From Candidatus Helarchaeota archaeon (GTDB lineage: Archaea > Asgardarchaeota > Lokiarchaeia > Helarchaeales > RDOG01), in NCBI GenBank assembly GCA_019058315.1, contig JAHPZH010000002.1:64001-128000 (forward strand): 64,000 bases of DNA. Reading direction: 5' to 3'. Below the pieces are notes generated by a model. The model saw nothing but the letters and a program-made list of their open reading frames with translations. It did not search any database and was not told where the DNA came from. The translations under genes were made by a program, and so were the position numbers. Each line of letters starts with the position of its first letter. The stretch's first letter is position 1. This document shows positions 6,958-64,000 of this stretch, piece after piece.

Positions 6958-8148
6958 TTGAATGCACAAGAACGGATATTAAAGGCAATTAATCACGAAG
7001 AACCCGATCGTGTCCCTTGGTTTGAATTAGGAATTGATAATTTAAAAATTATTGAGCATTATGGTGCCAGATACGAACTTCAAGGTTTTGGAAAAGTACT
7101 TAAAGATCTGTACAGCTCATTTAAAGGTGATAAAAAACAATTTTCTGAAAATTTTAACAAAATAGTTTATAGTAAAGCAGCTCTAAAAACGTTTATGAAA
7201 CCGATTGTTAAATTATATAAAAGTATAGGAATTGACGCAGCTGTTGTGCCTCTAGCCTTATACCCCCTTGAATATAATGAGGCTAGTTTCGTAGATGAAT
7301 ATGCTAGAAAATTTGATGTTATAAAAACTAGTGATGGTATGGATATTTTTTATTATAGAGGGGGTGCACTTAAAGATATTGACGATTATGAAGCATTTCC
7401 TCGCTTAAATCCTGATCTACCTTTGAGGAAAGACTCTTTTGAAGTAGCAAAAAAGTTAGAAAAACAATCTAATGGAAATATATGTATATTTCCCGCTTTC
7501 ACAGGTATAATGGAAGCGACATGGGAAGCATTTGGAATAGAAAATTTTAGTAGGTTATTAGCCAAACCAAAGATGATTAAAAAAATTTTTGATGATATGG
7601 GCAAGTTTGCGGTTGAATTAACAAAAAGGATTGTTGAATGGGGAGAAACTGGACCAATTTTAGTTTTTGACGATTATGGTTATAAAAAAGGATTATTTAT
7701 GAGTCCAAGGAATTATAGAAAATACGTTTTTCCTTGGTTAGAACAGATTTGTAAAACAGCTCATAAAGGCGGATTAAAAGTAATTTTACATAGTTGTGGA
7801 GATATTTCTGCCATCTTAGATGATCTCATTAAATCAGGTGTGGACGCCCTCCATCCAATTGAACCAACAACAGCAAATCCGGAATATAGTATTTTTAAAC
7901 TGAAAGAGAAAATTGGTAAAGATATAACTTTTGTTGGTAATGTATCTCCTCAAGATCTTTCAGATAAAGATCCGGATTTTATAAAAAATTATACAAAAGA
8001 ATTAATTAGAGATGTTGCTCCTGGAGGAGGTTTTATATTAAGTTCTGGACACAGTATTAATCCTGCAGTTAAATTAGAAAATTTTCTAGCAATGAAAGAA
8101 ATATTTGAAAAATATAGAAATTATCCAATAGGATTTATTCCCGATTAA
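6958..8148 (+). CDS. UroD/MtaA family methyltransferase-like protein (copy B1)
   Basis: AINHEEPDRVP, DDYG, HSCG, GGGFILSSGHS; TTG start. Confidence 0.85.
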   Translation: MNAQERILKAINHEEPDRVPWFELGIDNLKIIEHYGARYELQGFGKVLKDLYSSFKGDKKQFSENFNKIVYSKAALKTFMKPIVKLYKSIGIDAAVVPLALYPLEYNEASFVDEYARKFDVIKTSDGMDIFYYRGGALKDIDDYEAFPRLNPDLPLRKDSFEVAKKLEKQSNGNICIFPAFTGIMEATWEAFGIENFSRLLAKPKMIKKIFDDMGKFAVELTKRIVEWGETGPILVFDDYGYKKGLFMSPRNYRKYVFPWLEQICKTAHKGGLKVILHSCGDISAILDDLIKSGVDALHPIEPTTANPEYSIFKLKEKIGKDITFVGNVSPQDLSDKDPDFIKNYTKELIRDVAPGGGFILSSGHSINPAVKLENFLAMKEIFEKYRNYPIGFIPD

Positions 8149-8295
8149 AAATTAACAACTTAAACTCAGTATAATCCTTTTTGATTAACCTAATGGAAAA
8201 TTATAAAGAGAAAGTAAGTTTTACGATAGTTAATAAATGAAAAAATTATTAAATAAATTTCTTTATTTAAAAATAATAATTCTGGTGTATTTATT

Positions 8296-9453
8296 ATGAA
8301 TTGTAAAGAAAGAGTAATAAAAGCATTTCATTTTGATAAACCTGACAAGATCCCAAAACATATAATACTTGATCCAAGGACTGATATGTTCATATTATAT
8401 ACTTATGAACCTTTAAGTTTTCAACCCACCAATTATCCTCCTCATATATTTGGAGGTCCTGCTCTTTATGGTGATAAACAATATCGTACAATGATTTATA
8501 AATGGAATGACGAAAACCGAATAAAATTAGGATTACCAGAAGATTGGTGGAATCATGAAATAAATAACGAATTACTAACAATTGATGAATGGGGTATTAT
8601 TTGGAAAAGTGGAGCTGCAAGTAGAGATAAAAGCATGGGCCATCCTTTTAGAGGTCCATTTCAAGATTCATGGGATAATCTTGATGAGTATCAACCTCCT
8701 GATGCTACTGATAGAAATAGATTTAGATACTGGAATAAACTTACGCAAAGCTTGAATAAAGATAATTATATCTTAGGATGTCCAATGCTATGTTTCATAC
8801 ATAATAAATCATCATTTCTTAGAGGATTTACAAATATTATGGTTGATTTTGTAAGAAATCCAAAACAAGTTCATAAATTAATAAAATACGTTACTGATTT
8901 TTTTTATGATCAAATACCACTTATTAAAGAGGTTTGTCCAGAGCTCGATGCTATTTTTGTTCTTGATGATCTCGGGTCTCAACAAAGTCCGATTATATCT
9001 CCAAGACTTTTTAAAAAATTTTATTATGAGCCTTACAAAAAAATAATTGATTTAACTCACGATCTTGGTTTGGATTTTGTTTTACATTGTTGTGGACAAG
9101 TAAAAGAATTATTTCCTATTTTTCTAGATCTTGGAATAGATGTAATGGAATTTGATCAGCCCAATGTTACAGGTGTTGAAAATTATAAAATATACGCTGA
9201 ACAGCATAAAATGGCTTTTTGGTTAAGTTCTGATCTGCAAACAACTTTTACCCAAGGTACACCTGAAGATGTGGAAAAAGAAGTAAAATATTTTGTAAAA
9301 GAAATTGGAAATAACTATGGGGGTTTGGCGTTTTCTATGTATAATGATAATAGAGCAATGCAAACTCCAAAAGAAAATATAAAAGCTTTTAGGAAAGCTA
9401 TGGACAAATGGGGAAAATATAACGAACAAGGAATTATTGATTGGTTAGCTTAA
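8296..9453 (+). CDS. UroD/MtaA family methyltransferase-like protein (copy A2)
   Basis: Same length as, and nearly identical to, 5754..6911. Confidence 0.85.
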   Translation: MNCKERVIKAFHFDKPDKIPKHIILDPRTDMFILYTYEPLSFQPTNYPPHIFGGPALYGDKQYRTMIYKWNDENRIKLGLPEDWWNHEINNELLTIDEWGIIWKSGAASRDKSMGHPFRGPFQDSWDNLDEYQPPDATDRNRFRYWNKLTQSLNKDNYILGCPMLCFIHNKSSFLRGFTNIMVDFVRNPKQVHKLIKYVTDFFYDQIPLIKEVCPELDAIFVLDDLGSQQSPIISPRLFKKFYYEPYKKIIDLTHDLGLDFVLHCCGQVKELFPIFLDLGIDVMEFDQPNVTGVENYKIYAEQHKMAFWLSSDLQTTFTQGTPEDVEKEVKYFVKEIGNNYGGLAFSMYNDNRAMQTPKENIKAFRKAMDKWGKYNEQGIIDWLA

Positions 9454-10753: not shown

Positions 10754-12022
10754 GTGATTAATATGTATTTAAATTCTTTTTCGAATCTTTTTAAGTTAAC
10801 AAATAGATCTAACCATCGTATTTCCAGTTGGGATAAAAAAGGAAGGAATAATGATTTTATTCATGTTGAGAGCAAAAAGACTGCGACTTTAGCCGAAATA
10901 CAAGGTCCTGGAATTATTAAACACATTTATTTTACTACAATTCTTCAAAATCCTCTTGATTTTAGGTACGGAATAATAAGAATGTATTGGGATCACGAAG
11001 AAAATCCTAGTGTTGAAGTACCTTTAGGGGATTTCTTTGGAGTAAGTAATTGTAAGGTACGTCTGATTAATTCATTAATCATTACTATTAATAGAGGAGC
11101 CTTAGGGAGTTATGGTTTTAATATGTATTTTCCAATGCCATTTTCTAAACATGCTAAAATTGAATTAGAAAATCAAGGACCATCAACATTAGGTGGTATT
11201 ATCTCCGCTTTTTGGTATCATATAGATTATGATAAATTAAATGAACCGTTACCTAAGGATACAGGTTATTTTCACGCCTTTTGGAATAAAGAAAAACTTA
11301 CAAAAATTTCAGAAAGAATTCCAGTAAAAAAGAAAAATGTTCAACTATGGAGCGGAAAAAATTTAACAGGTGAAGATAATTACGTAATTTTAGATACTGA
11401 GGGAAACGGACAGCTAGCAGGATTACTGCTGAATATAGATAATATAGCTGGAAGTTGGTATGGAGAAGGTGATGATATGATTTTTATTGATAATGATACA
11501 TGGCCTCCTTCTATTCACGGAACAGGTACCGAAGAGATTTTTGGAGGCGGTGCAAGCCCAAAACATGAATATTCGGGTCCATATACAGGATTCCATCTCA
11601 TTGAAAACTTTGATTATTCAGGAAATAATGGCATGTATCGATGGTATATTCATGATCCTATAAGGTTTAAAAAAAGAATTAGATGGACAATTGAACATGG
11701 TCATGCTAATAATTTTGAAAATGATTATTCCAGTGTGGCTTATTGGTATCAAAATGAGCCACATAAAAAATTCCCACCATTACTTCCAATAGACGAAAGA
11801 ATACCAAGATTACCAGATAATTTTGAACAGATTTGGTCAGAATGTAAATTAACCACAACTGAAGTATTTCTAAGGTTAAGTAGTTCAAAATCTAAATATT
11901 CAACAGTTATTGATAGATCATATCAAGACACTTTACACGATTTTATGCAAGGAAAATATCAAATAGCTTATGAAAATTTGAAAAAAATAAGAAAAAAGCT
12001 AAAAGAAAAATCTGAAGCATAA
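10754..12022 (+). CDS. DUF2961 / glycoside hydrolase family 172 protein
   Basis: GPG.I.HI, PSVEVPLGDFF, FPMPF, WYGEGD, HGTGTEE.FGG, YRWYIHDPIRF, IEHGHAN, SVAYWYQ. Confidence 0.88.
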   Translation: MINMYLNSFSNLFKLTNRSNHRISSWDKKGRNNDFIHVESKKTATLAEIQGPGIIKHIYFTTILQNPLDFRYGIIRMYWDHEENPSVEVPLGDFFGVSNCKVRLINSLIITINRGALGSYGFNMYFPMPFSKHAKIELENQGPSTLGGIISAFWYHIDYDKLNEPLPKDTGYFHAFWNKEKLTKISERIPVKKKNVQLWSGKNLTGEDNYVILDTEGNGQLAGLLLNIDNIAGSWYGEGDDMIFIDNDTWPPSIHGTGTEEIFGGGASPKHEYSGPYTGFHLIENFDYSGNNGMYRWYIHDPIRFKKRIRWTIEHGHANNFENDYSSVAYWYQNEPHKKFPPLLPIDERIPRLPDNFEQIWSECKLTTTEVFLRLSSSKSKYSTVIDRSYQDTLHDFMQGKYQIAYENLKKIRKKLKEKSEA

Positions 12023-12032
12023 AATAGGTCTT

Positions 12033-12134
12033 TTAAAGAATAAAAAAGATAAACAAAATCCAACTAATTGAAATAACTACTAAAATCAAAAAAATATTTA
12101 ATGTAAATTTCCCTAAACCAGATTTTTTTTCCAA
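12033..12134 (-). CDS. Putative 33-aa single-TM peptide (MEKKSGLGKFTLNIFLILVVISISWILFIFFIL)
   Basis: TTG start after AGGATGGA; basic N-terminus plus hydrophobic stretch; below the ORF-track cutoff. Confidence 0.3.
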   Translation of the reverse strand: MEKKSGLGKFTLNIFLILVVISISWILFIFFIL

Positions 12135-12351
12135 GAACTAATCCATCCTACTCATAATAATTAATTTTAATTTAAGATTCAGAAGTGAGATTTTTTGAAA
12201 GATACTAATTAAAATTATTAAAATAATTCTTATTATGAGTTATTGGACATTTTTTTAACATTTGAAAACTAGAATAAACTATTCCAAGGTCTTATTATAA
12301 AATAATGTTAAATCAAAGGTACTGAAAGAAAAAGAATAAATTCATAATTTA

Positions 12352-12738
12352 TTAGGATTTAAAAAAAGAGTTTTTAGTGTCTTCTCCATCTAAAATCCAA
12401 AGTAATATAATTCCAATAATGAAAATCATCAAAATAAGAGATATTATTGCTGATATAACCCAACCCCATTCCTTAAATGTAATAAGACCAAAAACAGTCA
12501 CTACTAATAAGATTCCTAAAAATAAAGATATTAATCCGATAATCGGTAACATTTCCAACAAAGGTTGACCAGTTATTACATTAGTATCAAAAAATCCCGC
12601 CCAACCCAATTGTATACCAAGATTTATTACTCTAAATGGTTCGATAAAAGAAAATATTCCAACATATAAGGAATATAATCCCCAGATTAAGAATAGGATA
12701 ATAATTACCCAATATCCGAATGTTCTTTTATTACTCAA
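12352..12738 (-). CDS. Hypothetical membrane protein (3-4 TM)
   Basis: Hydrophobic segments; K.WGW motif. Confidence 0.65.
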   Translation of the reverse strand: MSNKRTFGYWVIIILFLIWGLYSLYVGIFSFIEPFRVINLGIQLGWAGFFDTNVITGQPLLEMLPIIGLISLFLGILLVVTVFGLITFKEWGWVISAIISLILMIFIIGIILLWILDGEDTKNSFFKS

Positions 12739-55017: not shown

Positions 55018-55123
55018 TGGTGGACCGGCCGGGACTCGAACCCGGGACTTGTGGTTGAAAATAATTATATTTTCAATCTCCACATTGCGAATGTGGCGAT
55101 CATACCAACTGATCTACCGGCCC
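55018..55123 (-). tRNA. tRNA-Ala(CGC) with a variable-region intron (55049-55077, position 45/46)
   Basis: G3-U70; CCACA-TTCGCAA-TGTGG; splice motif GTGG/CCAC with AGA and AAG bulges; encoded CCA. Confidence 0.92.
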
Positions 55124-57707: not shown

Positions 57708-60140
57708 TTAATTCTCCATTTTTTCAAGAATCTCTTTTATAACGAGCTCTTTGCTTCTCTCTTCTAAAAATGTTTTAATATTTGGAACCCAAGATTGCCA
57801 GTCAGGATACATTCGAGCTTTATAAGTTATTGGTGTAGGTATATCTTCGGATAGTTCTTTACCTTCATCTTTTTTACGTTTACGAATCTCTAATATTTTT
57901 TCATATTGTAAATTCTTTGGTAACATTTGAAATCGCTCGAATTGATAACCAAAGATTGCTCTTCCTTGAGTAGCTGATCTAATTTCATCTGCTATTCCCA
58001 CACCCTCTCTTTGTCCTACCGCTTCTGAAGCCGGTAATTCTGCTTGAATCTCGGCAGTATTTGCTACTTGTTTAGTATCTACCACTTTGCCCCTATGTTG
58101 TGTTAAGATTGTCATAACCGCTCCCATAAAATCAACTGGGACTTTTATATCAATTCTTAAAATTGGTTCGAATAAACTGGGATTTGATGTAAGAAATGAA
58201 ATTCCTAACGCTGAAATAGTCATAACCATTATCTGTCCAAACCTAGTATGTGTAGGATCCTCGTGAACAGTTGCATCTGTTACAACTGCTCTAATACCAT
58301 AACCGGGTTCGTTAGCAAGGTTCGATCTAAAGCAAAAATCTCGAAATGTAGAGATTATATAAGATTTAATTCGATCTAATCTTTGAACACCAGTAGAACC
58401 GTTGACTAACATATTATTTCCTTCAATTGCCCAGATTCTACGTGCTTCCTTTCTATCCCAACCAGCTTCTTCTCTTAAGATCTTTGCCCTTTCCTTAGCA
58501 TCTTGATATTCAGAAATTTTACCTTGACGAATTATTTTCATAGTCTCTTGATTCAACGGTTCAATATATAGAACAAGTTTATTATGCCCTTCAGTGCATT
58601 TTGTTTTAATTTCTACTCCAGCCATTAATGGTGTCTCATAATAAACTGTAATGGGAGTTGAAATTTTTATAGGAATCTCATCTTGAATTCGCTCGGTTAT
58701 AATTTCAAGCTGAAGAGGGTCAATGCCACTTAGAATGTATTCACCACTTTCTTGGTCTTTTTTAAAAGTAGCTGTTGGATCAGCGAGAACCCATTTTGAT
58801 ACAACATCACCTAATTTAGCCAAGTCTTCAGGTTTTTCTGGTTTAATACTTTGACTTACGACTGCATCTGAGGCGTAAATTATCTCTTCAAATCCAGGTA
58901 AGTCATCATCTTTATTTTCTTCTGAAATAAAAGTTTCACCCGCTGGATGAATTTCGGGTAATTCCATTGCAAATAAATTTCCGGCTGGAATTTCATCAAC
59001 AGGTAAAATTGTATCTATTTCTTGTACTCCAAGCCTTCTAACTCTGATAGATTTTTTAGCATTCTTCAAAAATATGGTATCTCCAGTACGTAAAGTACCA
59101 CTCCAAATCCTACCAATTAAAGTTGCTCGTTTTGTTTTTGGATGAATAAAAAGCTTAGTAATCATTCCAAGTAGTGGACCATCTTTTCTTATATTTATTA
59201 AAGCCCAACCTAACCATTTTTCCAGATCATCTTTAAATTCTGATGCGTCATCAGCATCTTTTACAGAAAGTGCATTCTTAAGATCTCCGCTCCAGATTTT
59301 AATCATTCGATATTTTTGTGCCTCTATGGGACTAGGTAAATGGTTTATAATAACTTCTAATAATGCCTCATCTAAAGGTAAATTCTCCTTTAACCATCTA
59401 ATTGGTTCTTTATCATTTTTTTCTATTGATTCTCTATATTTATCCATAACAATTTTGGCATTTAAATTCTTTTTTTGTAACATTGGGATAGTAAAAGCCC
59501 ATCCATCTTTAGCTGAACCAAAAACTACTTGTCCCTCGGCTGGATTCAAATTCCACTTTCCTTTAAATGGTTCTGGAGACACTTGTTCTATATGAGAATT
59601 TACTTCTGCAATAATTGATTCAAATTTCTTTGTGATTTCATCAGGTGGAAGTTTTAATTCTCTTATTAGACGATCAACTTTATTAATGAATAGGACAGGT
59701 TTACACCATTCATTTCCTACTGAAAGACCAATATTTGTTATTGTTTGAGTCATAATACCTTCCAGCGCATCAACCAAGATAACGGCTCCATCAGAACCTC
59801 GAAGCGCCCGGGAAACTTCCCCAGTAAAACTAATATGACCTGGAGTATCATTTATTTCCAACAAATATGTCTTTCCGTCATAATCATAATTTAGAAGAAC
59901 AACACTTGTAAATATTGTAATGCCTCTTGCTTGTTCTTCTTCATCATAGTCTGTTAATCTCTTTTCTCCTTCATATTCTGCGGACATAAGCCCAGCTCTT
60001 CCCATTAAATAATCACAAGCTGTGCTTTTGCCATGATCAATATGTGCTACGATGGAGAAGATTCTCCGTTCTTCTAGCGGATGTTCTTTAATCATTTTTT
60101 GAATTTCATCTGCATTCTTTACTTTTACCAATTTATTCAC
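57708..60140 (-). CDS. Elongation factor 2 family GTPase; paralogue lacking the HRG diphthamide motif
   Basis: AHIDHGKS, RGITI, DTPGH, NKVD, GSAK; domain IV loop reads HEDPTHTRFGQ. Confidence 0.9.
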   Translation of the reverse strand: MNKLVKVKNADEIQKMIKEHPLEERRIFSIVAHIDHGKSTACDYLMGRAGLMSAEYEGEKRLTDYDEEEQARGITIFTSVVLLNYDYDGKTYLLEINDTPGHISFTGEVSRALRGSDGAVILVDALEGIMTQTITNIGLSVGNEWCKPVLFINKVDRLIRELKLPPDEITKKFESIIAEVNSHIEQVSPEPFKGKWNLNPAEGQVVFGSAKDGWAFTIPMLQKKNLNAKIVMDKYRESIEKNDKEPIRWLKENLPLDEALLEVIINHLPSPIEAQKYRMIKIWSGDLKNALSVKDADDASEFKDDLEKWLGWALINIRKDGPLLGMITKLFIHPKTKRATLIGRIWSGTLRTGDTIFLKNAKKSIRVRRLGVQEIDTILPVDEIPAGNLFAMELPEIHPAGETFISEENKDDDLPGFEEIIYASDAVVSQSIKPEKPEDLAKLGDVVSKWVLADPTATFKKDQESGEYILSGIDPLQLEIITERIQDEIPIKISTPITVYYETPLMAGVEIKTKCTEGHNKLVLYIEPLNQETMKIIRQGKISEYQDAKERAKILREEAGWDRKEARRIWAIEGNNMLVNGSTGVQRLDRIKSYIISTFRDFCFRSNLANEPGYGIRAVVTDATVHEDPTHTRFGQIMVMTISALGISFLTSNPSLFEPILRIDIKVPVDFMGAVMTILTQHRGKVVDTKQVANTAEIQAELPASEAVGQREGVGIADEIRSATQGRAIFGYQFERFQMLPKNLQYEKILEIRKRKKDEGKELSEDIPTPITYKARMYPDWQSWVPNIKTFLEERSKELVIKEILEKMEN

Positions 60141-60341: not shown

Positions 60342-61748
60342 ATGAATGTTTCTAAAAAAATCATAAATGTAGTGCTATTAGGTCATATTGACCATGGTAA
60401 AACAAAATTGGCAGAAAAATTAAGTGAAAAAATATCAACAGCCGGTTTAGACAAACATCCCGAGGAACAAGAGCGCGGTATATCGATCGATATAGGCTTT
60501 ACTGCATTTGAACTTAAAGAATATTTAATAACCCTTGTCGATGCACCCGGTCATGCAGATTTAATAAGGAATGTTGTAGCTGCATCGTCTATATCTGATG
60601 CCGCGATTCTTGTGATAGCGGTTGATGAAGGTCCGATGATTCAAACCGGAGAACATATTGTGATATTGGATAGTTTTAAGATTCACAATGTAATAATCGC
60701 TCTCAATAAAATTGATTTGGTTAAAAATGACATAATTCAAAAAAGAATTGATGAAATAAAAAATTTATTAAAGGAAACATCTTTTCCAAATGCTCCCATA
60801 ATTCCGATATCCGCTGAAAAAGATATTGGGATTGAAGAATTAAAAAAAGCTTTGTATTCTATTCTATCTTCTCCCAAACGGCAAACTGATGGACCTTTTA
60901 AAATGCCGATTGATCATGCTTTCCCAATAAAAGGAACAGGAACTGTTATAACTGGAACTATCCATCGTGGAAAAATTACTATAGGCGATAAAATTGAGAT
61001 TATGCCTCTAAAAATTCCTATAAAAATAAAGGGTATACAAATTTTTAAAGAACCTGTTCAATCTGCTAAAGCAGGCGATCGCGTGGCATTAGCAATTTCG
61101 AGATTGGATTATCATAAAATTGAACGTGGATATTATGCTTGTTCTCCAGACAGCCTTAAAATATCTAAAAATTTAATTATTAAGGGTAAAGTTAACTCTC
61201 TTTTTAAAAAAGTCATTAAGTCTGGGATTAGAGTTCATATAACTGTTGGTATGCCGACTGTTTCTGCTATTATTTATCCATTTAAAATTGAAAATTCTAA
61301 AAACATATTATTAGAAAAAATAAGCTCAAATGAAGAATTTTATGCGTACTTACAATTAGATAAACATGTCACTACAGAAATAGGGGAACAATGTTTAATT
61401 TCTCGACTGGAACTTCCTCCAACCACTTTAAGAATTGTTGGGAATGGAATAATAGAGAATTCAGAACCATCTGATATTGAATTATATAAGGAATCGAGTC
61501 GTAAAGGTACCTTAAGATCAATCAAAAATCAAAATGATTTAGTAGTAAGATACGTTATAGATGGTTTATCTAAAAGCAAATTTGGAGCGGAAAAACTGTT
61601 AAATAAAGAAATTTATACTGAAAATGGAAAAAAAGGAAAGATTCTTTCGCCTTTTGGAACAAAGGGCGGAGTCATAGCCAAATTTAAAGAAAAACCAGAT
61701 GAAAATATTATAGTTTATTTAAAAAAATATAAAAAGGTTAAAATATGA
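60342..61748 (+). CDS. selB: Selenocysteine-specific elongation factor (archaeal SelB/EFSec)
   Basis: GHIDHGKT, RGISID.GF, DAPGH, QTGEH, DHAF.IKG.GT, C-terminal GKI..PFGT.G domain; Sec context. Confidence 0.93.
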   Translation: MNVSKKIINVVLLGHIDHGKTKLAEKLSEKISTAGLDKHPEEQERGISIDIGFTAFELKEYLITLVDAPGHADLIRNVVAASSISDAAILVIAVDEGPMIQTGEHIVILDSFKIHNVIIALNKIDLVKNDIIQKRIDEIKNLLKETSFPNAPIIPISAEKDIGIEELKKALYSILSSPKRQTDGPFKMPIDHAFPIKGTGTVITGTIHRGKITIGDKIEIMPLKIPIKIKGIQIFKEPVQSAKAGDRVALAISRLDYHKIERGYYACSPDSLKISKNLIIKGKVNSLFKKVIKSGIRVHITVGMPTVSAIIYPFKIENSKNILLEKISSNEEFYAYLQLDKHVTTEIGEQCLISRLELPPTTLRIVGNGIIENSEPSDIELYKESSRKGTLRSIKNQNDLVVRYVIDGLSKSKFGAEKLLNKEIYTENGKKGKILSPFGTKGGVIAKFKEKPDENIIVYLKKYKKVKI

Positions 61749-63067
61749 AAGATTTAGATAAATATTTTCGTAATATCATTCCAGATCATATGTTAGATCG
61801 TGGTATTACAGTATTAGAGACTTATTTGAAACCAATAAGAATTTTATTGGAACAGAGAAGTATTCCTGAAGAAGGTTGGAATAAGGAGTCAATTAAACTT
61901 TTTTTAAAATTACTTTCACTGATGGATACTGATAAAGATCCAATCGCCGCCCGAGTTGGTGAAAGAGAAGCAAGGATGGCATCTCCATATATCGCGGAAT
62001 TAGCTCAAGGATTTTGCCATGGAATTGGTAGAAGTGGGGTTATTGCAACTTCCCAACCAAAAGCACCTGGTGGATCAATCATGTATAATCTAGCAAATAG
62101 ATTAGCATTATATGCAATAAAAAAGTTTGGTGTTCCAAATGCAAAAGGGGCTATAGTCTTTCCATTAGCTACTGGTATGTCAATTGCTTTAGCATTAGCG
62201 GTGGCAAGAGATATCACAAAATGTAAAAAAGTAATTTTTCCAAGATTAGATCATAAATCACCTTTAAAAGCTATTAGATTAGTTGGTCTGACTCCTGTTA
62301 TAATAGAAGGACAAATTTATGGAGACGCTGTGCGTATACCACCTGAAATTATAGAAAAAGCGATAGATAAAGAAACAGCAGCTATCCTATCAACAACCAC
62401 ATTCTTTCCACCTCGAGAAGCTGATGATATCAAAGCCATTGCGAAAATAGCAGAAGAACATCAAATTCCACATATAATCAATAATGCATATGGTGTTCAG
62501 AGTAGAATTTTAATGAAAAAAATCCAAGGCGCAATCGATGCTGGTCGTGTTGATGCATTTATCCAAAGCGTAGATAAAAACTTCCTGGCTCCCATAGGAG
62601 GAGCAATAGTTGCCTCCCCTAATAAAGAATTTTTAGAAAAAATTAACCAATCATATGCTGGTAGAGGAACTGCAGCACCAGTCGTTCAATTTTTAGCTGC
62701 AATCTTAACGCTTGGAGTGAAAGGATATGAAAGATTACGTGATGAACAAGAAAAAAATTTTAAATTATTAAAGGAACTACTTCTCAAAACAATAGAGAAA
62801 TATGGCGAAAGAGTATTAAATGTCGAAAATCCTGTAGCTATCGCAATATCAATGACTAAAAGGGATCCTCAAAAAGTAGGAGCGGCGTTATATTCTCTTA
62901 GAGCCACCGGCCCAAGAGCTCCATCCTCTAAGGATTGGGGATCATGTACAAACGAATATAATTGTCCTTATTTAGTGCTGAATGCAGCAATTGGTGTAAA
63001 AAAATCCGATATTATACAAATTAATGAGAAGTTAGAAAAAGCACTCCAACAAATAAAACCAAATTAG
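61745..63067 (+). CDS. spcS: O-phosphoseryl-tRNA(Sec) selenium transferase (SepSecS)
   Basis: GERE.R, HGIGRSG....QPKA.G, P.ATGM, H.INNAYG.Q, QS.DKNF..P.GG; ATGA overlap with selB. Confidence 0.95.
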   Translation: MKDLDKYFRNIIPDHMLDRGITVLETYLKPIRILLEQRSIPEEGWNKESIKLFLKLLSLMDTDKDPIAARVGEREARMASPYIAELAQGFCHGIGRSGVIATSQPKAPGGSIMYNLANRLALYAIKKFGVPNAKGAIVFPLATGMSIALALAVARDITKCKKVIFPRLDHKSPLKAIRLVGLTPVIIEGQIYGDAVRIPPEIIEKAIDKETAAILSTTTFFPPREADDIKAIAKIAEEHQIPHIINNAYGVQSRILMKKIQGAIDAGRVDAFIQSVDKNFLAPIGGAIVASPNKEFLEKINQSYAGRGTAAPVVQFLAAILTLGVKGYERLRDEQEKNFKLLKELLLKTIEKYGERVLNVENPVAIAISMTKRDPQKVGAALYSLRATGPRAPSSKDWGSCTNEYNCPYLVLNAAIGVKKSDIIQINEKLEKALQQIKPN

Positions 63068-63140
63068 TTTAGAATTATTTCTAAAAAATAATTTATAATA
63101 AAAATCAAGTCCTTTATATGAGCAATAATAGTAATTTTGT

Positions 63141-63232
63141 GGCAGACTGTGCCGTAGGTGGTCCTGCGGTCCGGACTTCAGATCCGGGATACTCGAGAGA
63201 GTATGCGGTTCGATTCCGCCAGTCCGCCGCCA
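63141..63232 (+). tRNA. selC: tRNA-Sec (TCA), archaeal 9/4 fold
   Basis: 9-bp acceptor GGCAGACTG/CAGTCCGCC (one A-C), 7-bp D-stem, 6-bp anticodon stem with CTTCAGA loop, long variable arm, 4-bp T-stem, G73-CCA; TTTATA at ~63113. Confidence 0.95.
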
Positions 63233-63257
63233 ATTCTCATTTTTGGTGTAATTTAAA

Positions 63258-64000
63258 TTGAATCTTGAAGCAATAACAGAATCTATTAGAAATTTTGATG
63301 GTGTTAAAAGAAAAGAAGGCATAGCTATATCAATTAAACCATTAGAAGAAACATTAAACTTGGGAAATGTGAACGTAATAAAATCATTTGGTGAAGATGC
63401 AGCCGTTTTTGAAGTGCCAAATTATGATAATGATTATTTCCTATTAGCATTGGACGGTATGTGGAATAAATTGGTTGAAGCTGATCCATGGTTAGCTGGA
63501 TATTTTTCGATTTTAGTAAATGTTAATGATATTGTAGTTAAAGGGGGAACACCATTAGCTTTATTAAACATCATATCTACTACTGATGATTCATATACCA
63601 AAGAAATAATGGATGGTATTGTAGAGGGATGTAAAAAATTCTCAGTTCCAATGGTAGGAGGACATTATCATCCAAAAGCTAATAATAATTCATTATCTGT
63701 TGCTATTTTGGGTAAAGTTAAAAAAACCGCTGTTTTATTTTCTGATTCTGCCAAGGTTGGAGATAGTATTTTAATGGGAATTGATATGGATGGTAGTTTT
63801 AATACGAAATTCAAATATGCTTTTAACACAACTCAGCATAAGACACCTTCTCAAATTAACAAGATCTATCAAGTATGGCGGGATATTACTCATAAAAGTT
63901 TAGCATCAGCAGGTAAAGACATATCGAATCCAGGAATTTTAGGAACTTTAGGAATGCTATTAGATGCTAGCGATAAAGGAGGACGTGTGAATATTTTAAA
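63258..64000 (+). CDS. PurM/SelD-fold protein, methanogenesis marker protein 2-like (runs off the window; not in the ORF track)
   Basis: TTG start; IRNFDGVKRK, FGEDAA, LALDGMW, DPWLAGY..ILVNVNDI...GG.P, VGGHYHP, KDISNPG.LGTLGMLL. Confidence 0.85.
   Translation, partial: MNLEAITESIRNFDGVKRKEGIAISIKPLEETLNLGNVNVIKSFGEDAAVFEVPNYDNDYFLLALDGMWNKLVEADPWLAGYFSILVNVNDIVVKGGTPLALLNIISTTDDSYTKEIMDGIVEGCKKFSVPMVGGHYHPKANNNSLSVAILGKVKKTAVLFSDSAKVGDSILMGIDMDGSFNTKFKYAFNTTQHKTPSQINKIYQVWRDITHKSLASAGKDISNPGILGTLGMLLDASDKGGRVNIL

What the first reader, a model, noticed from the sequence alone, without database searches (positions are those of the whole stretch)
60342..64000. Compact selB-SepSecS-tRNA(Sec) cluster extended by a SelD-fold 'methanogenesis marker 2' gene
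Seen: selB overlaps SepSecS (ATGA), tRNA-Sec follows 73 bp later, and 25 bp after its CCA a PurM/SelD/ThiL-fold ORF begins. That ORF keeps the ATP/Mg acidic motifs (GEDAA, DG, NVND, GGH, KDIS..G) but lacks the N-terminal Cys/Sec-x-x-Lys of true SelD. Known: SepSecS needs selenophosphate from SelD, the marker-2 family has no established function, and Sec genes in methanogens are mostly dispersed. Inference: this protein may be an alternative or accessory selenium (or sulfur) activating enzyme, reminiscent of the Cys/Sec-less eukaryotic SPS1, which would give the family a function. PSTK and canonical selD are not in the window.
Basis: partly seen in the sequence, partly recalled or inferred. Interest (0 to 1): 0.76.

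Follow-up and report, generated by a model that had tools for sequence, protein, structure and literature searches.

The report
Marker-2 gene beside Asgard selenocysteine genes
The selenocysteine gene cluster is real and is followed by the Asgard version of the uncharacterised 'methanogenesis marker 2' enzyme; this neighbourhood is old and widespread in Asgard archaea, but the evidence argues against the enzyme being a replacement selenium activator.

Summary
Observation confirmed. selB (60342-61748) overlaps SepSecS (61745-63067) by ATGA. tRNA-Sec (63141-63232) follows 73 bp later. 25 bp after it, a 328-aa PurM-superfamily gene starts and runs 244 bp past the window end.

That gene is the orthologue of methanogenesis marker 2 (Mmp2). 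It scores 357 bits against a TIGR03267 cut-off of 365 and is 42-47% identical to methanogen proteins. It is not SelD.

The linkage to the Sec genes is conserved: Helarchaeales 3/3, Freyarchaeia 3 genomes, Atabeyarchaeia 2 genomes, Thorarchaeia 41 genomes. However, the same block also carries TFB, TBP, tRNA-splicing endonuclease, DUF47 and a zinc-ribbon protein, so it looks like an inherited mixed block rather than an operon with one purpose.

A Sec-containing canonical SelD lies elsewhere in this genome. SelD was found in 23 of 24 Sec-positive Asgard genomes tested. Four Sec-negative lineages lost SelD but kept Mmp2, and methanogens carry Mmp2 next to MCR-activation genes or nifB.

The 'alternative selenophosphate synthetase' reading is therefore rejected. 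An accessory role in selenium or sulfur handling remains possible but unlikely (about 0.15). Biochemical function is still unknown.

The parts
60342..61748 (+). selB / aSelB (Sec-specific elongation factor), 468 aa
   Evidence: TIGR00475 291 bits (cut-off 242). Pfam hits GTP_EFTU, GTP_EFTU_D2 and aSelB_III.
61745..63067 (+). SepSecS (O-phosphoseryl-tRNA(Sec) selenium transferase), 440 aa; its start overlaps the selB stop (ATGA)
   Evidence: TIGR03531 482 bits (cut-off 225); PF05889 E 1e-119. Overlap read directly.
63113..63119 (+). TTTATAT, a TATA-like box 22-28 nt upstream of tRNA-Sec
   Evidence: Direct reading. That it is a promoter is inferred from the usual spacing of archaeal promoters (my own knowledge).
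63141..63232 (+). tRNA-Sec (anticodon TCA), CCA encoded
   Evidence: ARAGORN. Rfam RF01852 63.5 bits against gathering score 47.
63240..63248 (+). T5 run followed by GGTG (Shine-Dalgarno-like), 9 nt before the TTG start
Evidence: Direct reading.
63258..64000 (+). Mmp2-like PurM-superfamily gene (328 aa; continues to window-equivalent 64244), TTG start
   Evidence: - TIGR03267 357.4 bits (cut-off 365) over 1-321 of 323 positions; AIRS and AIRS_C domains.
- The N-terminus aligns with homologues from residue 1.
- AF2 model pLDDT 97.4.
- Just beyond the window (64241-65176, minus strand) lies a convergent NapH-like membrane polyferredoxin. The same pairing is seen in Thorarchaeia.

Best explanation
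**What the gene is.** The ORF after tRNA-Sec is the Asgard orthologue of 'methanogenesis marker 2' (Mmp2; TIGR03267, arCOG00640, COG2144). It is an ATP/Mg-binding enzyme of the PurM superfamily.

**What the sequence shows.**
- It keeps all four acidic nucleotide/metal motifs.
- It keeps an N-terminal Gly...Arg-Lys lid that corresponds to SelD's G-U-x-C-K loop.
- It has no conserved Cys or Sec.

**Likely chemistry (inferred).** It most likely uses ATP to phosphorylate or activate an oxygen of a still-unknown acceptor, as ThiL, PurM, PurL and HypE do. It probably does not load selenium.

**Why it sits beside the Sec genes.** Its position beside selB-SepSecS-tRNA-Sec is a remnant of an ancestral Asgard gene block. 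That block also contains PSTK, TFB, TBP, tRNA-splicing endonuclease, DUF47 and a zinc-ribbon coiled-coil protein. The adjacency therefore reflects inherited gene order more than a shared pathway.

**Expected role in this organism.** This is a Helarchaeal alkane oxidiser with three McrA-like genes, Mmp3, Mmp7 and NifB. The protein presumably performs the same unknown maturation or cofactor step as in methanogens, where it is encoded with MCR-activation genes or nifB.

**Shown:** identity of the genes, orthology, synteny, distribution. **Inferred:** the chemistry and the lack of a dedicated selenium role.
For: **Family identity.**
- TIGR03267 357 bits, full length.
- 42-47% identity to methanogen Mmp2.
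- In the tree, Asgard clade A (SH-aLRT 99) is sister to the methanogen/ANME clade.
- The Freya orthologue passes the curated cut-off (374 bits).

**Not another PurM-type enzyme.**
- SelD model 46 bits against a cut-off of 125; ThiL model 80 against 184.
- The genome has its own SelD(U), ThiL, HypE and PurM. A 746-aa frame on C3 matches PurM-superfamily models twice; I read it as PurL but did not scan it.
- Structural neighbours tie: PurL Z 27.0, HypE 26.8, SelD 25.1, ThiL 25.1.

**A mixed synteny block.** Thorarchaeia and Atabeyarchaeia share DUF47, EndA, fam9, a Zn-ribbon protein, Mmp2L, selB, SepSecS, fam3, PSTK and TFB within about 16 kb. TBP sits in the Atabeya block. Mmp2L stays beside the Zn-ribbon gene or DUF47 even where the Sec genes are elsewhere, in Lokiarchaeales and Borrarchaeum.

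**Distribution.**
- SelD is present in 23/24 Sec-positive and 0/25 Sec-negative genomes tested.
- Mmp2 is retained in Sec-negative Odin 3/4, Baldr 1/1, f15 19/19 and f21 1/1.
- SelD is never in the block (coordinates compared).

**Methanogen context.** DUF2117-Mmp2-Mmp3-Mmp6-Mmp5-Mmp15-Mmp17-NifB in Methanobacteriales; NifB-Mmp2 in Methanosarcinales.

**This genome.** It has 3 McrA-like genes, Mmp3, Mmp7 and NifB.
Against: - The linkage to the Sec genes survives in both deep Asgard clades of the family and in two different arrangements. That is more than most neighbours manage.
- Every Sec-positive Asgard family sampled has the gene.
- The block holds every Sec component except SelD and has a SelD-superfamily paralogue instead.
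- Orthologues in MCR-less and NifB-less Asgards (Freya, Atabeya, Jord, Baldr) show that an MCR- or NifB-bound role cannot be the whole story.
- No substrate is known and no experiment exists.
Confidence: 0.55

Rival explanations
1. Accessory selenium or sulfur handling, SPS1-like. The protein would bind or shuttle selenophosphate or selenide to SepSecS, or activate sulfide or selenide directly without a Cys relay. It would have been kept next to SepSecS for that reason.
For: - Linkage within 5 kb of SepSecS in Helarchaeales 3/3, Freya 3, Atabeya 2 and Thor 41 genomes.
- No Sec-positive family lacks the gene.
- The N-terminal G...K lid aligns with SelD's catalytic loop, and the ATP/Mg motifs are intact.
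- Here the gene starts 25 bp after tRNA-Sec with an SD-like GGTG and no room for its own promoter.
- From my own knowledge, not tested here: eukaryotic SPS1 lacks Sec/Cys and has been reported to associate with SepSecS.
Against: - No conserved Cys or Sec.
- Kept in four Sec-negative Asgard lineages that lost SelD and in Sec-negative methanogens. Methanobacteriales loci carry it, and 0 of 61 genomes sampled from that phylum have SepSecS.
- Its methanogen neighbours are MCR-activation genes and nifB.
- In Hel_GB_B it is convergent to SepSecS, and in G297 the tRNA lies antisense between the two genes, so co-transcription is not conserved.
- The Methanococcus selenium-response study lists Mmp4 and Mmp14 as selenium-responsive, not Mmp2 (PMC11097638).
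- SPS1 itself now has a non-selenium structural role in the Zincore complex (PDB 9hjt title).
Confidence: 0.15
2. Dedicated maturation factor of the MCR/ACR activation machinery or of NifB-made [8Fe-9S-C] clusters. On this reading, in this alkane-oxidising Helarchaeon it serves the three MCR-like enzymes, and the Sec adjacency is irrelevant.
For: - Mmp2 overlaps the start of Mmp3 in the Methanobacteriales operon Mmp2-Mmp3-Mmp6-Mmp5-Mmp15-Mmp17-NifB, and sits directly after NifB in Methanosarcinales. NifB is a neighbour in 36 loci.
- The MCR activation complex contains Mmp3, Mmp7, Mmp17, McrC and A2 with three L-type clusters, presumably made by NifB (PMC12176620).
- This genome has McrA x3, Mmp3, Mmp7 and NifB.
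Against: - McrA was found only in Helarchaeales among 301 Asgard genomes. NifB-like genes were found only in G000, Thor, Odin, some Borr and one f25 genome.
- Close orthologues (44-48% identity) nevertheless occur in Freya, Atabeya, Jord, Baldr and f21, which have neither.
- The Helarchaeal genes group with other Asgards, not with methanogens.
- Mmp2 did not co-purify with the activation complex; the paper does not mention it.
Confidence: 0.15
3. A tRNA- or translation-linked role, for example an ATP-dependent tRNA modification step. This is suggested by neighbours such as tRNA-Sec, PSTK and EndA in Asgards and the preQ0/archaeosine genes in Methanosarcinales.
For: - The Asgard block holds tRNA-Sec, PSTK, selB and EndA.
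- The Methanosarcinales order is QueC-DUF366-QueE-QueD-NifB-Mmp2.
Against: - NifB lies between the que genes and Mmp2.
- No RNA-binding domain is detected.
- Contexts in other lineages (ANME-1: HAD-like-Mmp2-CofH; Baldr: hydrogenase module; Jord: acyl-CoA ligase) show no tRNA theme.
Confidence: 0.05

Closest known systems
Methanogenesis marker 2 protein (TIGR03267; arCOG00640 'AIR synthase-like protein'; COG2144 'selenophosphate synthetase-related protein')
   Same: - Full-length match, 357 bits, positions 1-321 of 323.
- 42-47% identity to Methanobacterium, Methanosarcina, Methanoperedens and ANME-1 proteins.
- Same invariant residues: G15, R18, K19, D47, N90-D91, G134-G135-H136, K220-D221.
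- Sister clade in the tree.
   Different: - It scores 8 bits under the curated cut-off.
- It belongs to an Asgard clade that also occurs in organisms without MCR.
- Its neighbours are Sec-decoding genes rather than mmp/nifB genes.
- The family's function is unknown in any organism.
Selenophosphate synthetase SelD/SPS2 (TIGR00476)
   Same: - PurM-superfamily fold: Z 25.1, rmsd 3.2 A over 271 residues to E. coli SelD.
- Acidic ATP/Mg motifs.
- An N-terminal loop whose Gly and Lys align with SelD's G-U-x-C-K.
   Different: - 46 bits against a cut-off of 125.
- Val replaces Sec/Cys and Arg replaces the second Cys; there is no conserved Cys anywhere.
- A true SelD with in-frame TGA exists on another contig.
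Eukaryotic SPS1 (SEPHS1), the Sec/Cys-less SelD paralogue
   Same: Works-like resemblance only. It is a SelD-superfamily protein without the selenium-binding residue that keeps the Lys, and it is encoded or found together with SepSecS. The SPS1-SepSecS association is from my own knowledge and was not tested here.
   Different: - SPS1 is a close SelD paralogue. Mmp2 is a separate family, as near to ThiL, HypE and PurL as to SelD.
- Structural match to human SPS1 is Z 22.8 at 14% identity.
sll0787 / MSMEG_0567 AIR-synthase-like proteins of the Nit1C cluster (TIGR04049/TIGR04050)
   Same: Second-best family hit (258 bits, full length). Same superfamily branch in the tree of representatives.
   Different: Below the cut-off (321 bits). 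No nitrilase, GNAT or MSMEG_0568-type radical SAM neighbours are present here.
Asgard Sec machinery as described by Mariotti 2016 (PMC4989117) and the ISME J 2024 survey (PMC11227280)
   Same: Same components: tRNA-Sec, EFSec/selB, SecS/SepSecS, PSTK, and SPS as a selenoprotein.
   Different: - In Lokiarchaeum the genes were on separate contigs, except EFsec and tRNA-Sec about 6 kb apart.
- The 2024 survey flagged only an Asgard-exclusive hypothetical protein near the Sec genes, not Mmp2.
- The compact block with an Mmp2-family gene was not found described in the papers I searched.

Membership tests
Methanogenesis marker 2 (TIGR03267) | Whole-protein HMM score at or above the curated cut-off (365 bits) | tested here: inconclusive
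   357.4 bits, 8 bits short, over the full model. The Freya orthologue in the same clade scores 374.1. Thor, Loki, f15 and Borr relatives score 239-322.
Methanogenesis marker 2 (TIGR03267) | Groups with methanogen Mmp2 in a tree and is the single family member in the genome | tested here: met
   Asgard clade A (99) is sister (86) to the methanogen/ANME clade. There is one hit in G000; the next best is ThiL at E 4e-20.
Methanogenesis marker 2 (TIGR03267) | Restricted to organisms with MCR (the property that made it a 'marker') | tested here: not met
   This genome does have 3 McrA-like genes. But clade-A orthologues occur in Freya, Atabeya, Jord, Odin, Baldr and f21, and McrA was found only in Helarchaeales among 301 genomes.
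SelD / selenophosphate synthetase (TIGR00476) | HMM score at or above 125 bits | tested here: not met
   46.5 bits. The genome's true SelD scores 235.
SelD / selenophosphate synthetase (TIGR00476) | Sec or Cys in the N-terminal G-[UC]-x-C-K loop | tested here: not met
   The profile alignment puts Val16 at the Sec position and Arg18 at the second Cys. No Cys is conserved in the family.
SelD / selenophosphate synthetase (TIGR00476) | Catalytic Lys of the N-terminal loop and acidic Mg/ATP motifs | tested here: met
   K19 is conserved in at least 90% of 94 family members and aligns with the SelD Lys. D47, D91 and D221 are invariant or nearly so.
SelD / selenophosphate synthetase (TIGR00476) | Selenide-dependent ATP cleavage to AMP, Pi and selenophosphate | not testable with these tools
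   This needs an enzyme assay.
ThiL (TIGR01379) | HMM score at or above 184 bits | tested here: not met
   80.4 bits. A separate ThiL scoring 294 bits lies at G000:C5:768239-769279.
HypE (TIGR02124) | HMM score at or above 251.6 bits and a C-terminal Cys that carries the thiocarbamate | tested here: not met
   No HypE hit for the full protein at E 0.001 or better. The C-terminus reads ...SGKSR without Cys. A separate HypE scoring 410 bits is in the genome.
Archaeal/eukaryal Sec-decoding set | selB, SepSecS and tRNA-Sec above their curated thresholds; PSTK and SelD in the genome | tested here: met
   selB 291/242, SepSecS 482/225, tRNA-Sec 63.5/47. A PSTK-like gene scores 170 bits, below the 290 cut-off but the best hit in the genome. 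SelD with TGA scores 235/125.

The most novel reading that the evidence does not exclude
Mmp2 would be a Cys-independent chalcogenide-handling ATPase. It would activate or escort sulfide/selenide, or thio-/selenophosphate, for more than one client: SepSecS in Sec-using Asgards, and NifB-type or MCR-activation iron-sulfur clusters in methanogens. This would explain why a SelD-superfamily gene, rather than SelD itself, has stayed inside the Asgard Sec block in two deep clades, and why it sits beside nifB in methanogens. It would give 'methanogenesis marker 2' a function.
Probability: 0.1. Interest if true: 0.8.

Novelty: new member of a known kind. Interest (0 to 1): 0.42.

Why it matters
Mmp2 is one of the last 'methanogenesis marker' proteins with no function and no solved structure. 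Three results narrow the hypotheses:
- It is not tied to MCR, NifB, SepRS or the Sec trait in Asgard archaea.
- It is nearly universal in the Loki, Thor, Hel, Freya, Atabeya, Borr, Odin and Baldr lineages.
- It keeps a SelD-like Gly...Lys lid without the selenium-binding residue.

The work also documents a compact, deeply conserved Asgard Sec block (PSTK, selB, SepSecS, an unknown 216-233-aa protein, tRNA-Sec). That block is useful for anyone studying how the eukaryote-like Sec system arose. The unknown 'fam3' protein is a better candidate for a missing Sec factor than Mmp2.

If the minority reading were true, it would link selenium/sulfur activation with complex iron-sulfur cluster assembly.

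Tried and rejected
1. **Mmp2 tracks NifB: rejected.** NifB-like genes were found only in G000, Thor 58/76, Odin 3/4, Borr 2/5 and f25 1/21. They were not found in Freya, Atabeya, Jord, Loki, f15 or Baldr.
2. **Mmp2 tracks MCR: rejected.** McrA occurs only in Helarchaeales.
3. **Mmp2 makes thiophosphate for SepRS/SepCysS: rejected.** SepRS is absent in Thor, Odin, f15 and f21 (all Mmp2-positive) and present in f6, f7 and f24 (all Mmp2-negative).
4. **Mmp3 is a paralogue of Mmp2: rejected.** This was an artefact of single-linkage clustering; BLASTP gives E 0.3-0.8.
5. **Fold comparison to single out SelD: no discrimination.** PurL, HypE, SelD and ThiL all score Z 25-27. There is no solved Mmp2 structure.
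6. **Expression and co-transcription: not testable.** No RNA holder was listed among the public runs.
8. **ESM Atlas:** returned only the protein's own family labels.
9. **Contexts in Sec-negative or unlinked lineages:** Odin, Baldr, f21, Jord, f15, Loki and Borr show no common theme.
10. **First alignment for the locus search** was too diverse and was repeated with 13 sequences.
11. **Fold of fam3:** no PDB match at E 0.001 or better.

Full report
**1. What is in the window**

Mechanical ORF listing gives selB at 60342-61748, SepSecS at 61745-63067, and an ORF from 63258 that runs off the window end.
- selB scores 291 bits on TIGR00475 (cut-off 242) and carries the archaeal SelB domain III.
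- SepSecS scores 482 bits on TIGR03531 (cut-off 225).
- The two genes overlap by ATGA.
- ARAGORN and Rfam both call a tRNA-Sec at 63141-63232.

Read directly:
- A TTTATAT box lies 22-28 nt before the tRNA.
- A T5 run follows the encoded CCA.
- GGTG lies 9 nt before the TTG start of the next gene.

The N-terminus of that gene aligns with homologues from residue 1. Its transcript must therefore begin inside or upstream of the tRNA. That implies read-through from the tRNA, which is an inference only. No RNA data were available.

**2. The PurM-fold gene**

The window is G000:C5:64001-128000, and the full gene is 328 aa.

Scores against curated models:

| Model | Family | Bits | Cut-off |
|---|---|---|---|
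| TIGR03267 | methanogenesis marker 2 | 357.4 | 365 |
| TIGR04049 | sll0787 | 258 | 321 |
| TIGR01379 | ThiL | 80 | 184 |
| TIGR00476 | SelD | 46 | 125 |

The TIGR03267 match covers 321 of 323 positions.

- Database relatives at 42-50% identity come from many Asgard classes and from Methanobacterium, Methanosarcina, Methanoperedens and ANME-1.
- The genome has separate, clearly scoring ThiL, HypE and PurM genes, and a canonical SelD whose N-terminal loop reads HG-U-SCK with an in-frame TGA. A 746-aa PurM-superfamily frame on C3 is probably PurL but was not scanned.
- An AlphaFold model is very confident (pLDDT 97.4).
- The model is equally close to PurL, HypE, SelD and ThiL (Z 25-27; Foldseek E 1e-18 to 1e-21). 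'SelD-fold' therefore means no more than 'PurM superfamily'.
- No Mmp2 structure is in the PDB.

A profile alignment against the genome's own SelD corrects one detail of the reading. The family's invariant G15 and K19 fall on the Gly and catalytic Lys of SelD's loop. Val and Arg replace the Sec and the second Cys. No Cys is conserved in the family.

**3. Is the linkage conserved?**

Yes. I scanned 301 Asgard genomes for the protein, for a family profile and for SepSecS, fetched 20 loci and annotated them.

Arrangements found:
- **This genome (G000):** selB-SepSecS-tRNA-Sec-Mmp2L, then a convergent NapH-like gene and a Zn-ribbon gene.
- **Hel_GB_B:** selB-SepSecS, with Mmp2L convergent.
- **A third Helarchaeale (G297):** selB-SepSecS-fam3-tRNA-Sec (opposite strand)-Mmp2L.
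- **Freyarchaeia:** PSTK-NTase-NTase-KARI-selB-SepSecS-fam3-Mmp2L.
- **Atabeyarchaeia:** Zn-ribbon-NTase-selB-SepSecS-fam3-Mmp2L-TBP-TFB-PSTK.
- **Thorarchaeia** (named through): DUF47-EndA-fam9-Zn-ribbon-Mmp2L-NapH-like-selB-SepSecS-fam3-tRNA-Sec-PSTK-TFB.

In all 41 Thor genomes where both genes were listed on one contig, they lie about 3.8-4.6 kb apart.

The genes are not linked in three groups:
- Lokiarchaeales: separate contigs even in 10-contig assemblies.
- Borrarchaeum.
- Jordarchaeales: about 16 kb apart.

A tree shows two Asgard clades:
- Clade A holds Hel, Atabeya, f21, Baldr, Odin, Jord and Freya. It is sister to methanogen Mmp2.
- Clade B holds Thor, Loki, f15 and Borr.

Both clades contain Sec-linked members, so the linkage is probably ancestral.

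**4. Why the linkage is weak evidence of function**

The same block keeps genes with plainly different roles together over the same evolutionary distance: TFB, TBP, tRNA-splicing endonuclease, a PhoU-like DUF47 protein and a Zn-ribbon coiled-coil protein.

Where the Sec genes have moved away, Mmp2L still sits by the Zn-ribbon gene (Lokiarchaeales) or by DUF47 (Borrarchaeum).

Orientation is not conserved even within Helarchaeales.

**5. Distribution**

Per GTDB family, Mmp2-family hits against SepSecS hits:

| Pattern | Families (Mmp2 hits; SepSecS hits) |
|---|---|
| Both present | f1-f3 all; f4 66/68 and 65/68; f5 7/7 and 7/7; Thor 73/76 and 65/76; Jord 4/5 and 4/5; Atabeya 3/3 and 3/3; Borr 5/5 and 5/5; Freya 4/6 and 6/6 |
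| Mmp2 only | Odin 3/4; Baldr 1/1; f15 19/19; f21 1/1 |
| Neither | 16 families, 105 genomes |
| Sec only | none |

The Sec trait is thus nested inside Mmp2 presence. These are related lineages, so only a few independent events underlie the pattern.

The informative comparison is with SelD. It was found in 23 of 24 Sec-positive and 0 of 25 Sec-negative genomes tested, always with the TGA and never in the block. Four Sec losses took SelD with them but left Mmp2 in place. That is not how a dedicated Sec-pathway gene behaves.

Outside Asgard, Methanobacteriales carry Mmp2, while 0 of 61 genomes sampled from that phylum have SepSecS.

**6. What methanogen context says**

Clustering the neighbours in 80 fetched loci and annotating them gives three recurrent contexts:
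- **Methanobacteriales:** DUF2117-Mmp2-Mmp3-Mmp6-Mmp5-Mmp15-Mmp17-NifB.
- **Methanosarcinales:** QueC-DUF366-QueE-QueD-NifB-Mmp2.
- **ANME-1 and relatives:** HAD-like-Mmp2-CofH.

The MCR activation complex contains Mmp3, Mmp7, Mmp17, McrC and A2. It carries three [8Fe-9S-C]-type clusters that NifB presumably makes (PMC12176620). Mmp2 is not mentioned in that paper. The literature I could search says nothing on Mmp2 function beyond 'not verified'.

This genome is a Helarchaeal alkane oxidiser with three McrA-like genes, Mmp3, Mmp7 and a NifB-like gene. An MCR-related role would therefore be the default here. However, close orthologues sit in Asgards with neither MCR nor NifB, and the Helarchaeal genes are of Asgard rather than methanogen descent.

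I also tested SepRS as a possible partner and rejected it.

**7. Verdict**

- The conservation of the neighbourhood is a real result. I did not find it described: the 2016 Lokiarchaeum paper reports dispersed Sec genes, and the 2024 Asgard selenoproteome paper flags only an Asgard-exclusive hypothetical protein.
- The functional inference is mostly not borne out. The protein is an Mmp2 orthologue, not a SelD substitute.
- Its most likely mechanism is generic PurM-type, ATP-dependent activation of an unknown acceptor.
- The Sec adjacency is best read as inherited gene order.
- An accessory selenium or sulfur role keeps a minority probability. The reasons are the persistence of the linkage in two clades, the SelD-like lid, and the absence of SelD itself from an otherwise complete Sec block.

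Noticed in passing
L017:6452-7150(-), L018:7529-8209(+), L020:7941-8624(-), L024:4914-5564(-) and 7 more loci; G000:C6:155489-155899(-): An unannotated 189-233-aa protein ('fam3', no Pfam hit) lies next to the Sec genes in 11 of 13 Asgard Sec loci: directly after SepSecS in 10, and upstream of selB on the opposite strand in the Jord locus L023. Its AF2 model (pLDDT 88.9) has an alpha/beta N-domain plus a helical bundle and has no PDB match at E 0.001 or better. In this genome it is missing from the cluster; only a 137-aa frame on contig C6 matches (E 3e-19). It is a better candidate for an unknown Sec factor than Mmp2, and it may be the 'hypothetical protein' mentioned in PMC11227280.
   Followed up: partly
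G000:C5:430985-433074 beside PSTK at C5:433175-433906; L018:630-2828; L020:1325-2482 and 11542-12642: Paralogous proteins of about 350 aa resembling NTP_transf_2 (nucleotidyltransferase) sit next to PSTK or selB in Freyarchaeia, Atabeyarchaeia and this genome.
   Followed up: partly
window 64241-65176 (beyond the end; L015:4242-5177, minus strand) and L024:8881-9939: A NapH/NosR-type polytopic membrane polyferredoxin (CxxxCP motif plus two 4Fe-4S motifs) is convergent with Mmp2L here. It lies between Mmp2L and selB in five Thorarchaeia loci (30% identity), and it is absent from the Freya, Atabeya and methanogen loci.
   Followed up: partly
L119:8638-9441(-) with SepSecS at 11041-12375(-); L120:11005-11808(+) with SepSecS at 8073-9407(+): In Borrarchaeum (G041, G058) a NifB-like radical SAM gene lies 1.6 kb from a stand-alone SepSecS, with two opposite-strand genes between them. 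This may be chance.
   Followed up: partly
window 57708-60140 (-): An 810-aa EF-2 paralogue is divergent from selB. It scores 571 bits on aEF-2, below the 738 cut-off. It was also noted by another reader (e1-5470023).
   Followed up: no
window 55021-55123 (-): Rfam calls a 103-nt tRNA (55 bits) that ARAGORN did not report. It is probably an intron-containing tRNA.
   Followed up: no
G000:C5:376522-378207, C3:197876-199567, C11:316575-318257; C2:121992-123530; C11:401162-402067; C9:38691-39476: The genome carries three McrA-like genes plus Mmp3, Mmp7 and a short NifB-like gene. This is the alkyl-CoM reductase toolkit of Helarchaeales.
   Followed up: partly
G000:C11:67648-68751 (+): A further PurM-superfamily paralogue (368 aa) falls below every curated cut-off: HypE 117 bits, ThiL 95, SelD 84. 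It is unassigned.
   Followed up: no
L040 (DATKTP010000192.1) and L057 (DYFG01000100.1): Two public records are labelled 'Candidatus Deferrimicrobium sp.' and 'Nitrosotalea sp.'. The first carries a Helarchaeal Sec locus and the second an ANME-1-type MCM-HAD-Mmp2-CofH locus, so the organism labels look wrong.
   Followed up: no
Lokiarchaeales hits (e.g. G171:C54:60558-61520, G216:C13:32536-33501): Many Lokiarchaeales Mmp2-family matches are flagged with one or two in-frame stops (mostly TAA), although the open frame is about 320 aa. This is probably alignment overhang at the ends. I did not check it.
   Followed up: no
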